This document shows, one piece after another, positions 30,999-34,696 of a DNA stretch of 37,910 nucleotides. Below the pieces are notes generated by a model that had not been told where the DNA came from, did no database searches, and saw only the letters and a program-made list of their open reading frames with translations. The stretch's first letter is position 1, and every line of letters starts with the position of its first letter. The DNA comes from a virus (lineage: Duplodnaviria; Caudoviricetes). The translations under genes and the position numbers were made by a program. The DNA lies in the IMG/VR virus record IMGVR_UViG_3300011971_000004, positions 1 to 37,910 of that record; one strand, given 5' to 3'.

Positions 30999-32561
30999 GT
31001 GTCTGATATTACAGTTAATTATGGCCTTGTGAAACCTTTGGGGACAGAAAACTATGACGTGAATATACCAAACGCGAACATGGATATTATCGATGGGCAA
31101 TTAAAAACTAATTCAATCGCAATTGCAACCAAGGCAAGCGCCTCTGATTTAGTAGCAACCAACGCTGACCTTACTGCGCATTTGGCGGATTCTGCGTATC
31201 AAGTCGCAGGAGGAACGGCAACCGCTATAACGCTAACAACCGCAGCTTTAACTGATGGGTATGCTAAAACTTTTGTTGCTTTAGCCAACAACAGCGGATC
31301 AGCAACAACCATAAATACTAAACCACTGTATAAGCCAAACACAACGACTGCCCCAAATCTCATCGCCGGAAAAGCGTATACAGTCTGGTACAACTTAGCA
31401 GGTAATTGTTTTTTTATCAAAGCTAGTGCAGAGGGAAATACCGTTGTTGGACATGTACTAGCAGGAGATACGTTCAGCAACGACAGTGACACTGGGTTAG
31501 TTGGAACGATGCCAGAACAAGGCTCACCAACAATCACGCCATCCAGCGCAGGTGATATAGCTATTACGGCAGGGCATTACACAGGAGGGACTGTTAAAAA
31601 GGCATATGCTGTGGGCTCTGCAATTACAGATAATAGTTTAGTGATTACTTCTGGGGGGTTAGGTGTTCAAGTTTGGGCTTTAACAGATGTAGGGTACGGT
31701 CAATCCATAGCGGTTGATTCGTCTGGTAATGTATATGTAACTTATGGCAATTCGGCAGGGACAACTGTTGTAAGAAAACTGAACTCATCGGGTGCTCAGA
31801 TATGGGCGCTAACAGATGTTGGCACACCTACTGGCATAGCGGTAGATACTTCTGGTAATGTATATGTGGTCTATCAGGCAGCGAATGTAGTTAGAAAATT
31901 AAACTCATCGGGAACTCAAGTCTGGTCATTAAGCGATGTAACAAAACCCACTAGCATAGCAGTTGATTCATCATTTAATGTCTATGTGGCTTATTATAAT
32001 GTAAGCGGGACAACAACGGTAAGGAAAATGGACTCAACAGGCGCACAGATATGGGCATCCAGTGATGTAGGATATGGTCAATCAATATCCGTAGATACTT
32101 CTGGTAATGTATATGTGGCTTACAACAATACAGCAGGCACAACTAGCGTAAGAAAACTGAACTCATCAGGAACTTCAGTTTGGTCTATTTCCGATGTGAG
32201 TACCCCCAGAGGCATAGCGGTTGATTCGTCTGGTAATGTATATGTAACTTACTACGGCTCAGGGAAAACGGTGAGAAAGTTAAATCCATCTGGAGTTGAG
32301 ATTTGGTCATTGAGTGATGTGGCGAATGGCCTAAATGTCGCTGTAGATTCATATGGTAGTATTTATGTCACGAACACATCAAATTCGGTAAGAAAATTAA
32401 ACTCATCAGGAACTAAAGTATGGGGGTTAACAGATGTTGCAAGTCCCGTTGGTATAGCAGTAGATACTTCGAGCATTGTCTACGTCGCATATAGTAATGG
32501 CGTGGGAACAACTAGTGTAAGAAAGCTGTATGGCACAATCAATTATTCTGTAACTTCATAA
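30999..32561 (+). CDS. Tail fibre / receptor-binding protein with a C-terminal 7-bladed beta-propeller
   Basis: N-terminal NYGLVKP..ENYDV..NANMDIID, AHLAD junction, seven W.L.DV....IAVD.SGNVYV....VRKLNSSG repeats. Confidence 0.88.
   Translation: MSDITVNYGLVKPLGTENYDVNIPNANMDIIDGQLKTNSIAIATKASASDLVATNADLTAHLADSAYQVAGGTATAITLTTAALTDGYAKTFVALANNSGSATTINTKPLYKPNTTTAPNLIAGKAYTVWYNLAGNCFFIKASAEGNTVVGHVLAGDTFSNDSDTGLVGTMPEQGSPTITPSSAGDIAITAGHYTGGTVKKAYAVGSAITDNSLVITSGGLGVQVWALTDVGYGQSIAVDSSGNVYVTYGNSAGTTVVRKLNSSGAQIWALTDVGTPTGIAVDTSGNVYVVYQAANVVRKLNSSGTQVWSLSDVTKPTSIAVDSSFNVYVAYYNVSGTTTVRKMDSTGAQIWASSDVGYGQSISVDTSGNVYVAYNNTAGTTSVRKLNSSGTSVWSISDVSTPRGIAVDSSGNVYVTYYGSGKTVRKLNPSGVEIWSLSDVANGLNVAVDSYGSIYVTNTSNSVRKLNSSGTKVWGLTDVASPVGIAVDTSSIVYVAYSNGVGTTSVRKLYGTINYSVTS
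31170..31202 (+). repeat. Putative recombination site L inside the tail fibre gene
   Basis: CTTACT-gcgcatttg-GCG-gattct-GCGTAT-cAA; inverted counterpart at 33030-33062. Confidence 0.55.
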
Positions 32562-32574
32562 AGGGGGAAATAAA

Positions 32575-32895
32575 ATGATATTTTTGGGAAATTTGACAAT
32601 TATTTATTCAACAAAATCACAAGTAGGAATGATCCACAATATGCCGTTAGACCCCGTTAATGGAATGAACATGACTCAAGCACAATTAGAGGCCATAGGT
32701 ATCTTGGTCGATTCAATTCCAGAGCCACAACCCCCAACAGGGGAACAGGTTTCAGGGATGTTTGTTGACCCAACCACAAAGACTGTAACTTATGAATACG
32801 CAACTCCACCCGCTACACCTGAACAACAGCTTGCAGATTTGCAGTCTCAGAACGCTCAAATGATTCTAGATCTTGTGACAGGAGGTTTGATGTAA
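32575..32895 (+). CDS. Tail fibre-associated protein (XkdW-like position)
   Basis: 106 aa, ends in a PEQQLADLQSQNAQMILDL coil; lies between fibre and xkdX. Confidence 0.75.
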   Translation: MIFLGNLTIIYSTKSQVGMIHNMPLDPVNGMNMTQAQLEAIGILVDSIPEPQPPTGEQVSGMFVDPTTKTVTYEYATPPATPEQQLADLQSQNAQMILDLVTGGLM

Positions 32896-33033
32896 ATGGA
32901 TTGGGTTAAAATTTGTACTAACTATTATAAAGCTGGATACTACAATGACACATCGTTAAAAACTTTCGTGGTAAAAGGCAAAATTACAGAAGCAGATTAT
33001 CTAGCAATTACAGGAATTACTTACGTTGCTTAA
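32896..33033 (+). CDS. XkdX family protein (45 aa), absent from the ORF track
   Basis: MDWVKICTNYYKAGYY...FVVKGKITEADYLAITG; GGAGG RBS. Confidence 0.88.
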   Translation: MDWVKICTNYYKAGYYNDTSLKTFVVKGKITEADYLAITGITYVA

Positions 33034-33062
33034 TACGCTATAGACGCATGTAGTTGAGTAAG
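33030..33062 (-). repeat. Putative recombination site R, inverted relative to site L
   Basis: Minus strand CTTACT-caactacat-GCG-tctata-GCGTAT-tAA. Confidence 0.55.
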
Positions 33063-33080
33063 CAAACCATAAAAATGGCA

Positions 33081-33106
33081 TAAAAAGAACGCCCCGAAAG
33101 GCGTTA
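33081..33106 (-). terminator. Intrinsic terminator of the recombinase gene
   Basis: AACGCC-CCGAAA-GGCGTT with an A-tract on the plus strand (U-tract on minus). Confidence 0.7.
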
Positions 33107-34111
33107 TTGGACTAAGTATTGGTGATGAGATTGTTTCCGTTTTTCGTCGGTCAGGTTTGTATAAATCATAGTCGTGGCTGGATCAGAATGGCCTAGTAGT
33201 GCCTGTACAGCTACCAACTCAGCGCCGTTATTTAACATCAAAGTTGCGAAGGTGTGTCTAAATATATGGGGATGGACGTTTTTCACTACTCCGGAACGAC
33301 CCGCAATGATCTTAATTGATCGCTGGATCCCATTGCCCGATAGCCTCCGATAAGGCTGTCGCTCGGTGATAAACAATGCGTCTACGTTGTCCGTTCTCCG
33401 CATGAGGTATTTTCGCAAATGATACATGGCTTTAAAACTAAAATATACTGCCCGCTCCTTATTTCCCTTGCCAACCACCAAAACTGACATAGCTTGATAG
33501 TCTATGCTGTTACGGTTCATTTGCTGTATTTCAGATAGCCGGCCACCTGTAGCATATAGGACCTCGACCAAGGCTCTTTCTCTTGGCGTGATACAAGCTT
33601 CTCTTATCATTTCTAGTTCTTCGATAGTCAATGCCTTAGGAACTCGTTGTTCCTTCCTTAATGGCCTGATTCTCTTAGTAGGATCTCTGAGGATAATCTC
33701 CTCGTTGGCAAGCCAGCCGAACATGCTTTTGAGAACAGATAAGCGGCGCGAGAGTGACGATGTTTTAAGATGTCCGAACTCGCCCAGGTAGATGCGGAGA
33801 TCCGCTGTGGTGATTTCGCTAGTCGCTTTTTGAACGTATTTAGCAAGGATCTTTAACTCCAATGCGTAGCTATCCAAAGTTATTTTGCTTAGACCCTCAA
33901 GACGTTTTCCGGCTAGGAATAGATTAATCTTTTGCTGTAAGTCGGGGTTCCCACTGGCTATCAAGGCGGGTTTAATATCGTATTGAGTAAGAATTATGGA
34001 AAGAGCTTGTTTAAGTTCTGACTTGTCGTCTTTAGTACTAAACGTTGCAATGGAGCTCATCGTCTGATCTAGTAGGACTTCGGCGGTTGAGCTAAGGGGA
34101 TGTTCTAACAT
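33104..34111 (-). CDS. Second tyrosine recombinase (XerC/D-like), tail-fibre associated
   Basis: Intact R (TGGRLSE), K (GKGNKER), HxxR (HIFRH), H (LGHS), Y (TMIY). Confidence 0.93.
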   Translation of the reverse strand: MLEHPLSSTAEVLLDQTMSSIATFSTKDDKSELKQALSIILTQYDIKPALIASGNPDLQQKINLFLAGKRLEGLSKITLDSYALELKILAKYVQKATSEITTADLRIYLGEFGHLKTSSLSRRLSVLKSMFGWLANEEIILRDPTKRIRPLRKEQRVPKALTIEELEMIREACITPRERALVEVLYATGGRLSEIQQMNRNSIDYQAMSVLVVGKGNKERAVYFSFKAMYHLRKYLMRRTDNVDALFITERQPYRRLSGNGIQRSIKIIAGRSGVVKNVHPHIFRHTFATLMLNNGAELVAVQALLGHSDPATTMIYTNLTDEKRKQSHHQYLVQ

Positions 34112-34408: not shown

Positions 34409-34696
34409 TTATTCGGGCTTAACTTTCCTTGGCCTTCCGCCAAGCTTTCCGTTTTCTCGGGACGCTGAGGACTTTGCTTCTGTTTTGGCAGATCCGCCAA
34501 GTTTGCCCATTTTAGATGCGGTAACATTGAGGTTACAACCTATTAGGTATCTAGGATCAGCATCCAATTTTTCAATCATCAAATCTAATACTTTTTGAAA
34601 TGAACGAATTTGGGTATCGGTAAATCCTTCTGTTGGATCAGTCGTCCAATCTTGAAGAATGCCCATAATGTGACTGTACAATCTTTCGTAATCCAT
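34409..34696 (-). CDS. Hypothetical protein with basic GKLGG...GGRPRK (AT-hook-like) tail
   Basis: AAGGGGG RBS; own consensus promoter. Confidence 0.8.
   Translation of the reverse strand: MDYERLYSHIMGILQDWTTDPTEGFTDTQIRSFQKVLDLMIEKLDADPRYLIGCNLNVTASKMGKLGGSAKTEAKSSASRENGKLGGRPRKVKPE

What the first reader, a model, noticed from the sequence alone, without database searches (positions are those of the whole stretch)
31170..34111. Receptor-binding cassette flanked by inverted, heterotypic 33-bp sites next to a dedicated tyrosine recombinase
Seen: site L (31170-31202, encoding LTAHLADSAYQ at the junction between the tail-fibre anchor and its distal part) reads CTTACT-gcgcatttg-GCG-gattct-GCGTAT-cAA. 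Site R (33062-33030, minus strand, starting exactly at the xkdX stop) reads CTTACT-caactacat-GCG-tctata-GCGTAT-tAA. They share 17 nt in conserved blocks with no gaps. Together they enclose exactly the distal fibre, its chaperone and xkdX, and an intact second recombinase ends 41 bp away. Known: shufflons and invertases switch tail-fibre C-termini between alternative cassettes. Here there is only ONE cassette and the inner spacers differ. Inference, two models: (a) an ON/OFF inversion, since crossover in GCGTAT gives GCG-TAT-TAA, an immediate in-frame stop that truncates the fibre; (b) natural recombinase-mediated cassette exchange, where mismatched spacers block inversion but let whole host-range modules swap between co-resident phages or prophages.
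Basis: partly seen in the sequence, partly recalled or inferred. Interest (0 to 1): 0.85.

Follow-up and report, generated by a model that had tools for sequence, protein, structure and literature searches.

The report
Swappable phage tail-fibre tip cassette
A soil phage keeps the outer, probably host-binding part of its tail fibre between two short DNA sites at which related phages have changed to other tips, and the recombinase gene beside it likely does the swapping, which would be a dedicated way of trading host-range parts between phages.

Summary
The sites are real but were misread. They are dif-type 28-bp sites (11-6-11): L at 31173-31200 inside the fibre gene (spacer GGCGGA) and R at 33032-33059 at the xkdX stop (spacer GACGCA). 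Family data show them as direct repeats with two fixed spacer differences, not inverted; the 19/33 inverted match is chance-level. Relatives of the recombinase (nearest named: Desulfosporosinus, 76%) give 33 L..R modules with 29 different cassettes, never flipped (31 of 31 loci). Homology between phages stops at L or R (20 of 189 ends; null 0.05), sometimes to the base, always like with like. One soil run holds two forms of this phage that part at the first base of the R spacer; the left junction is unresolved. Best reading: like-with-like exchange between co-resident phages by the Xer-like phage enzyme (0.7); ON/OFF inversion is not supported. No activity is shown, this phage's R site is degenerate, and L-like sites also occur without a neighbouring recombinase. 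Ten literature searches found no description; this scan noted similar systems in other genomes before.

The parts
31173..31200 (+). Site L: 11-bp arm, spacer GGCGGA (31184-31189), 11-bp arm; in frame in the fibre gene at the end of the predicted N-terminal helix
   Evidence: 36.7 bits with a profile trained without it, next best in window 8.9; helix 48-66 then beta domain from 67 in the model
33032..33059 (+). Site R: 11-bp arm, spacer GACGCA (33043-33048), degenerate 11-bp right arm; direct with respect to L
   Evidence: Commonest family spacer (22 of 46); 9 nt after the last stop as in 13 of 33 modules; branch point of two contigs at 33043 in run X1; but not among the top five window hits of the held-out R profile and the only one of 46 right arms starting TGTA
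30999..31183 (+). Fibre anchor (residues 1-62), outside the cassette
   Evidence: ORF 30999-32561 follows baseplate J and Mu gp48-like genes
31190..32561 (+). Distal fibre: shared beta linker domain (about residues 67-154) and a beta-propeller (about 215-510); receptor binding is inferred from position
   Evidence: Pfam SBBP/NHL; model mean pLDDT 75.5; propeller fold matches only generic propellers in PDB and BFVD
32575..32895 (+). 106-aa ORF in the xkdW position (chaperone role inferred)
   Evidence: PHROG 3834, unknown function
32896..33033 (+). xkdX-like gene, last gene of the cassette
   Evidence: Pfam Phage_XkdX 1.5e-9
33088..33105 (-). Terminator-like hairpin behind the recombinase gene
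   Evidence: the same hairpin follows many relatives
33104..34111 (-). Xer-like simple tyrosine recombinase, 335 aa, separate from the phage integrase at 1006-2172
   Evidence: Best PDB hit XerD 3.9e-36; below the XerC, XerD and integron-integrase cut-offs; R191, H282, R285, H308, Y317 invariant in 33 of 33 intact relatives

Best explanation
The distal tail fibre, its two small partner genes and two direct dif-like sites with unlike spacers form a cassette that differs between related phages at exactly these sites, and the adjacent Xer-like recombinase likely exchanges it between phage genomes by recombining L only with L and R only with R. Shown: site anatomy, fixed direct orientation, two spacer classes (L GGCNGA, R GACNCA or GGACGA), many unrelated cassettes, breakpoints at the sites. 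Inferred: the enzyme binds the 11-bp arms and cuts at the spacer ends; an L x L or R x R crossover between two co-resident genomes (superinfecting phage, induced or resident prophage) makes a cointegrate or hybrid, and a second crossover at the other site completes the swap; the fixed differences at spacer positions 2 and 5 block L x R in cis and so protect the tip from deletion; the free position 4 is the wobble base of the Ala codon; because L is in frame, any tip fuses to any anchor. Extra R sites behind the module would let cargo genes enter and leave by R x R. A change of host range is inferred, not tested.
For: Sites enriched beside close recombinase relatives: hits in 64 of 71 loci at 65% identity or more (146 hits, 5 in shuffles), 19 of 36 at 45-65%, 4 of 55 below 45% (redundant loci and training sites included); 1 L-like and 1 R-like hit in 70 control loci picked by the gp48-like gene. 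Spacer identity L x R direct 1, 0, 1, 0.37, 0, 0.97; L x L 1, 1, 1, 0.26, 1, 1; R x R 1, 1, 1, 0.52, 0.87, 0.93. 33 modules, 29 distinct cassettes of 1.0-3.5 kb. 20 of 189 internal alignment ends lie at a site in both loci (null mean 0.049, maximum 2 in 1000), 17 R-R, 3 L-L, 0 L-R. L021/L022: 99.9% identity starts at base 1 of the R spacer; L020/L040: identity starts at spacer position 5 of L, 49% upstream; L004/L006: identical 1127-bp cassette between flanks of 75% and 80%; L080/L089: shared anchor, unrelated after L. Run X1: a 59.5x contig and the window's 8.9x contig both join the 79.7x flank at 33043; the other form ends in the same tail as fibre cassettes of L018, L030/L111 and L167. DNA-level constraint at L in loci picked by the linker alone: the codon before Ala/Ser/Thr-Asp/Glu ends in G in 32 of 35, and 26 of 27 Leu codons are TTG against 16% in the background (related phages, not independent). 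Recombinase intact in 33 of 42 representatives, dN/dS median 0.04 over 6 usable pairs. Two R arms equal XerC arms in Table 1 of PMC13141974.
Against: No binding or recombination assay. This phage's R right arm is degenerate. In run X1 the contig across L (to 31735) is unbroken at 76.4x and no alternative end was listed at L, so on face value the major form shares the first 550 bp of the cassette and parts inside it. 8 module pairs share the cassette start but not its end, so ordinary recombination also acts inside cassettes. Only 20 of 189 homology ends are at sites. Of 52 loci picked by the linker, 18 have an L-type site but only 1 has R and the recombinase in the DNA held; L167 has L, R, R and lysis genes with no recombinase between them; 0 of 5 fragmentary contigs carry it. 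5 of 42 recombinase genes are broken. Several breakpoint pairs come from metagenome assemblies and could be chimeric. R spacer class follows the recombinase tree but also the host lineage, so this does not separate phage enzyme from host enzyme.
Confidence: 0.7

Rival explanations
1. Integron-like route: cassettes travel as excised circles (L x R deletion, or R x R for cargo) that are then inserted, rather than by double crossover between whole genomes.
For: Sites are direct; several loci have arrays of up to three R sites with cargo genes between them; an R-bounded secreted-protein gene is found both in phage L167 and in a host chromosome stretch, 81% over 832 nt.
Against: L and R spacers always differ at positions 2 and 5; no L-R breakpoint among 20; single crossovers at L alone or R alone are seen; the enzyme is far below the integron-integrase cut-off. 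It may still hold for R-R cargo.
Confidence: 0.1
2. Ordinary phage mosaicism: homologous or microhomology recombination at a conserved protein hinge motif and at a gene end, with the recombinase a bystander.
For: L-like motifs without a neighbouring recombinase; internal cassette mosaics; the unresolved left junction in X1; clean fibre-plus-chaperone replacement without a dedicated enzyme is described for syringacins (PMC6331570, passages).
Against: R is non-coding yet conserved with a dif-like palindrome; L is constrained at synonymous positions while the residue varies; breakpoints fall on the spacer to the base; sites follow the recombinase.
Confidence: 0.1
3. Host XerC/XerD act on these dif-like sites, as on Acinetobacter pdif sites, and the phage enzyme does something else.
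For: Arms resemble XerC/XerD arms; sites occur in phages without the enzyme and in host chromosome stretches.
Against: The enzyme gene sits next to R in both orientations across two host groups and is conserved; the sites are near-symmetric, as suits one enzyme. The host dif site was not identified here.
Confidence: 0.07
4. ON/OFF inversion between L and R that truncates the fibre.
For: An in-register inversion would stop the fibre at 67 aa; phage tyrosine invertases for fibre variation exist (Rin, PMC6109161, passages).
Against: One relative orientation in 31 of 31 loci; inverted spacers mismatch at both ends; no silent inverted tips in the window or in the loci mapped (output partly cut).
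Confidence: 0.03

Closest known systems
dif modules of Acinetobacter plasmids (pdif sites, XerC/XerD; PMC13141974, abstract and passages read)
   Same: 28-bp 11-6-11 sites with like arms; recombination needs identical or nearly identical spacers; a single module is replaced through a cointegrate formed at one site pair and resolved at the other.
   Different: pdif sites flank modules in inverse orientation and use the two host enzymes; here the sites are direct, one lies in frame inside a virion gene, there are just two spacer classes, and a phage-encoded single enzyme is adjacent.
Rin shufflon of Bifidobacterium prophages (PMC6109161, passages read)
   Same: Arm-less XerD-like phage recombinase next to the receptor-binding gene; one site inside the gene and one directly oriented site just after it.
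   Different: Rin has identical 11-bp rix sites, inverted copies and stored silent tips that switch by inversion in one genome; here there are no inverted sites or silent tips, the two sites differ, and variety comes from other genomes.
Integrons (IntI, attI, attC cassettes; subgroup description in PMC8138268, passages; the rest recalled)
   Same: Tyrosine recombinase beside an array of genes each ended by a site (the R-R cargo arrays).
   Different: No IntI-type enzyme (104 bits against a cut-off of 265), no attC hairpins, and the key cassette is a gene fragment fused in frame at L.
Engineered recombinase-mediated cassette exchange with heterospecific lox or FRT pairs (recalled)
   Same: Two sites with incompatible spacers bracket a cassette that is exchanged by two like-with-like crossovers.
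   Different: That is a laboratory design; this would be a natural version serving phage host recognition.
Localized replacement of receptor-binding protein and chaperone in R-type syringacins (PMC6331570, passages)
   Same: Tip and chaperone are swapped together with an anchor point inside the gene.
   Different: There the downstream breakpoint varies and homologous recombination is proposed; here both ends are fixed sites beside a recombinase.

Membership tests
Phage tail-fibre shufflon or invertase system (Rin, Gin, Min) | Recombinase adjacent to the fibre gene | tested here: met
Phage tail-fibre shufflon or invertase system (Rin, Gin, Min) | Inverted copies of one crossover site | tested here: not met
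   direct, unlike spacers; one orientation in 31 of 31 loci
Phage tail-fibre shufflon or invertase system (Rin, Gin, Min) | Silent alternative tips stored in the same locus | tested here: not met
   one L site in the window; tandem modules in L001 and L013 are whole genes on one strand
Phage tail-fibre shufflon or invertase system (Rin, Gin, Min) | Inverted states in reads | tested here: inconclusive
   only contigs of one run were available; no strand-change joint listed
pdif / dif modules | 11-6-11 sites with XerC-like and XerD-like arms | tested here: met
   against Table 1 of PMC13141974
pdif / dif modules | Modules bounded by inversely oriented sites, alternating C and D type | tested here: not met
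   L and R, and successive R sites, are direct
pdif / dif modules | Catalysis by host XerC and XerD | not testable with these tools
   the adjacent enzyme is neither XerC nor XerD by NCBIfam cut-offs; which enzyme acts needs an assay
pdif / dif modules | Replacement of a module at like-spacer site pairs | tested here: met
Integron | IntI integrase with its catalytic-domain insertion | tested here: not met
   TIGR02249 104 bits, cut-off 265; aligns to XerD without a long insertion, and to IntI4 only over residues 258-323
Integron | attC hairpin sites | not tested
   sites are 28 bp; no folding was run
Integron | Array of genes each closed by a directly repeated site | tested here: met
   R-R cargo arrays in L043/L078, L025, L036, L004, L018, L167; absent from the window itself
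Tyrosine recombinase, simple Xer-like type | Core-binding plus catalytic domain with R, H-x-x-R, H and Y | tested here: met

The most novel reading that the evidence does not exclude
Bacillota phages share a natural recombinase-mediated cassette exchange system: one phage enzyme and two orthogonal spacer classes make every fibre tip in a host community interchangeable, in frame, across unrelated tail types, with phages lacking the enzyme served in trans and R-bounded cargo genes moving between phages and host chromosomes.
Probability: 0.5. Interest if true: 0.9.

Novelty: new variant of a known kind. Interest (0 to 1): 0.78.

Why it matters
How phages acquire new receptor-binding tips is usually put down to chance homologous or illegitimate recombination, or to inversion among tips stored in one genome. 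A dedicated enzyme with two orthogonal sites would make between-genome tip exchange a programmed, testable process, would explain a short hinge motif seen in many Bacillota fibres as a DNA site rather than only a protein motif, and would offer a natural single-enzyme cassette-exchange pair for genome engineering.

Tried and rejected
De novo repeat finder did not list the pair among its longest repeats. No RNA holder listed for the stretch; only one DNA run holds it and it may be the source; runs X2 and X3 laid nothing. The other form's cassette was not found in viral contigs by its end motif, nor other assemblies of this phage by the R flank. Cultured phages hold no close recombinase relative (2 records, 35-39%) and only weak fibre matches. 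Family-wide genome search gave 4 of 69 genomes with the enzyme, one new. Arms alone cannot orient the sites. The promoter scan was at chance level (5 found, 4.3 expected). Fold searches gave only generic propellers. R as the prophage attachment site was rejected: a separate integrase lies at 1006-2172 beside a repressor-like gene, and lysis genes lie beyond R and the recombinase. No R-type site was found behind the Clostridium-type L sites with these profiles; they may use another motif. The host dif site was not looked for. Papers checked by passages without finding this system: PMC9881135, PMC8138268, PMC9703825, PMC4909266, bioRxiv 2025.04.19.648921; their supplements were not read, and the tables of PMC9881135 and PMC8138268 could list such loci.
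Full report
Setting. The window is a 37.9-kb virus record with an integrase and repressor-like gene at the left end and a contractile-type tail module (baseplate J, Mu gp48-like gene, fibre, 106-aa ORF, xkdX), then a second tyrosine recombinase on the opposite strand and the lysis genes. The nearest named relatives of the second recombinase lie in Desulfosporosinus genomes (71-77%), then Anoxybacillus and Paenibacillus (52-66%).

The observation. The two 33-mers, their coordinates and the genes between them are as stated. Their likeness alone proves little: 19 of 33 positions, a level reached by 310 of 600 random window 33-mers within 3 kb, and the direct and inverted alignments score 19 and 20 of 34. 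The evidence that they are real comes from relatives.

Site anatomy. Loci fetched by the recombinase (47 viral, 30 genome, 80 metagenome loci) carry a conserved site behind the fibre module. It has the dif layout of two 11-bp arms around 6 bp; two arms are letter for letter XerC arms in Table 1 of PMC13141974. The same layout lies in frame in the fibre genes. Read on the fibre strand, L spacers are GGCNGA (36 distinct sites) and R spacers GACNCA or close variants (40 of 46) or GGACGA (6 of 46, Bacillales) (the site lists were filtered by spacer class). With 12 L and 30 R sites the spacers fit in direct orientation (29 of 30; 12 of 12), matching at positions 1, 3 and 6 and never at 2 and 5, while inverted they fail at both ends; arms do not tell the orientation. 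Position 4 varies in both classes and is the wobble base of the Ala codon in L. Profile hits occur in 64 of 71 loci whose recombinase is 65% or more identical, 19 of 36 at 45-65% and 4 of 55 below (these loci are redundant and include training sites); 70 control loci picked by the gp48-like gene gave one L-like and one R-like hit. The window's L scores 36.7 bits when held out; its R is degenerate in the right arm and is not among the top five hits, but has the commonest spacer at the commonest distance from the last stop.

What lies between. From the 107 loci at 45% or more I picked by hand 42 representatives (window included; duplicates and most loci without sites dropped; L015 and L094 are one phage). 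They give 33 L..R modules of 1.0-3.5 kb and 29 distinct cassettes on anchors of several tail types. L and R have the same relative orientation in 31 of 31 loci that hold both, whichever way the recombinase points. In 25 of 33 modules R lies within 25 nt of the last stop. In the model of the window fibre, L falls at the end of a helix, before a beta linker domain and a propeller.

Breakpoints. Of 189 internal ends of alignments between representatives, 20 fall within 20 bp of a site in both partners (null mean 0.049, maximum 2 in 1000 shifts): 17 R-R, 3 L-L, none L-R. L021 and L022 become 99.9% identical at base 1 of the R spacer; L020 and L040 become identical at L spacer position 5 and are 49% alike before; L004 and L006 share an identical 1127-bp cassette between 75% and 80% flanks, and L011 has the left flank of one and the right flank of the other; L080 and L089 share the anchor and part at L. 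Single crossovers at either site therefore occur. Against a simple picture, 8 module pairs share the cassette start but not its end, and metagenome chimeras cannot be excluded for every pair.

This phage in its sample. One soil run (X1, possibly the source) holds the stretch. The right flank is at 79.7x; two contigs join it at 33043, the first base of the R spacer: the window's own cassette end at 8.9x and a 1118-nt contig of other sequence at 59.5x whose last letters resemble the ends of fibre cassettes in L018, L030/L111 and L167. So two forms share the degenerate R arm, which suggests it was used in that state. The left junction is unresolved: the contig across L runs unbroken to 31735 at 76.4x and no alternative end was listed at L; on face value the major form parts inside the cassette. 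Contigs cannot show rare inversions.

The enzyme. It is a simple Xer-like recombinase (best solved relative XerD), below the XerC, XerD and IntI cut-offs, with R191, H282, R285, H308 and Y317 invariant in 33 intact copies; 5 of 42 are broken and 4 cut by contig ends; dN/dS is 0.04 over the 6 pairs not saturated. R spacer class splits with the enzyme tree, but also with host lineage. Sites are not always beside it: of 52 loci picked by the fibre linker, 18 have an L-type site and one has R and the enzyme in the DNA held, although L is constrained at synonymous positions there too; L167 has L, R, R and no enzyme before its lysis genes. Action in trans, or by host Xer, is open.

Mechanism. That tyrosine recombinases need spacer identity next to the cut points is established knowledge (recalled; for pdif sites, passages of PMC13141974). 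The spacer pattern then predicts L x L and R x R but not L x R, which is what the breakpoints show. I infer exchange between co-resident genomes through a cointegrate, as proposed for single dif modules in that paper, with extra R sites carrying cargo genes; one such R-bounded secreted-protein gene has a homologue between two R sites in a Desulfosporosinus chromosome stretch. No step has been shown biochemically, and a change of host range is inferred from gene position.

Known systems and novelty. It works like pdif module replacement and serves the role of the Rin shufflon, but fails defining features of both and of integrons. Ten searches of the held library found no paper describing it; subscription journals are mostly missing, and I saw listings and abstract starts for most hits and passages for eight papers. 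This scan has noted similar arrangements in other genomes; those notes are unchecked and are not counted as support. Verdict: new variant of a known kind, interest 0.78.

Noticed in passing
L299:4852-6900 (G002:C254); L301:7424-8610; L167:4995-6463; L018:4685-6154: R-bounded or R-ended genes for secreted proteins (BspA-type LRR, Ig-like or SPRY domains) occur in phages and in non-phage chromosome stretches; G002 has 6 R-type sites on 5 contigs.
   Followed up: partly
L300:7243-7548 (G002:C229): An L and an R site only about 250 bp apart, followed by the recombinase-type terminator, next to TIR and ThsB-like genes: probably a decayed phage remnant in a defence island.
   Followed up: partly
L004:4070-4321, L006, L036, L042, L043: A small gene of about 60-80 aa with no Pfam hit (tested for L004) recurs just after R, preceded by extra arm-like palindromic boxes; possible regulator or accessory sites.
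   Followed up: no
L001:7903-12305; L013:7007-11114: Two complete L..R fibre modules in tandem in one phage, which would allow exchange within a genome.
   Followed up: partly
L024:6001-10489 (L105): The recombinase gene is split by an insert with further tyrosine recombinase genes.
   Followed up: no
L181-L220, at the linker start: Many phages picked by the linker have an L-like site with another spacer (GTCAGA) and no recombinase in the held flanks; their low-GC codon use and protein types suggest clostridial hosts, which was not checked.
   Followed up: partly
window 34409-34696 (-): 95-aa ORF upstream of the recombinase, no Pfam or PHROG family; a homologue lies near the recombinase in L030.
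   Followed up: no
window 31706-31744 and 32213-32251: A 39-bp exact repeat inside the propeller that splits the assembly graph.
   Followed up: yes
L101:2587-3570: The propeller has a 36% homologue in a related locus just upstream of that locus's called L site region, without the linker domain.
   Followed up: no
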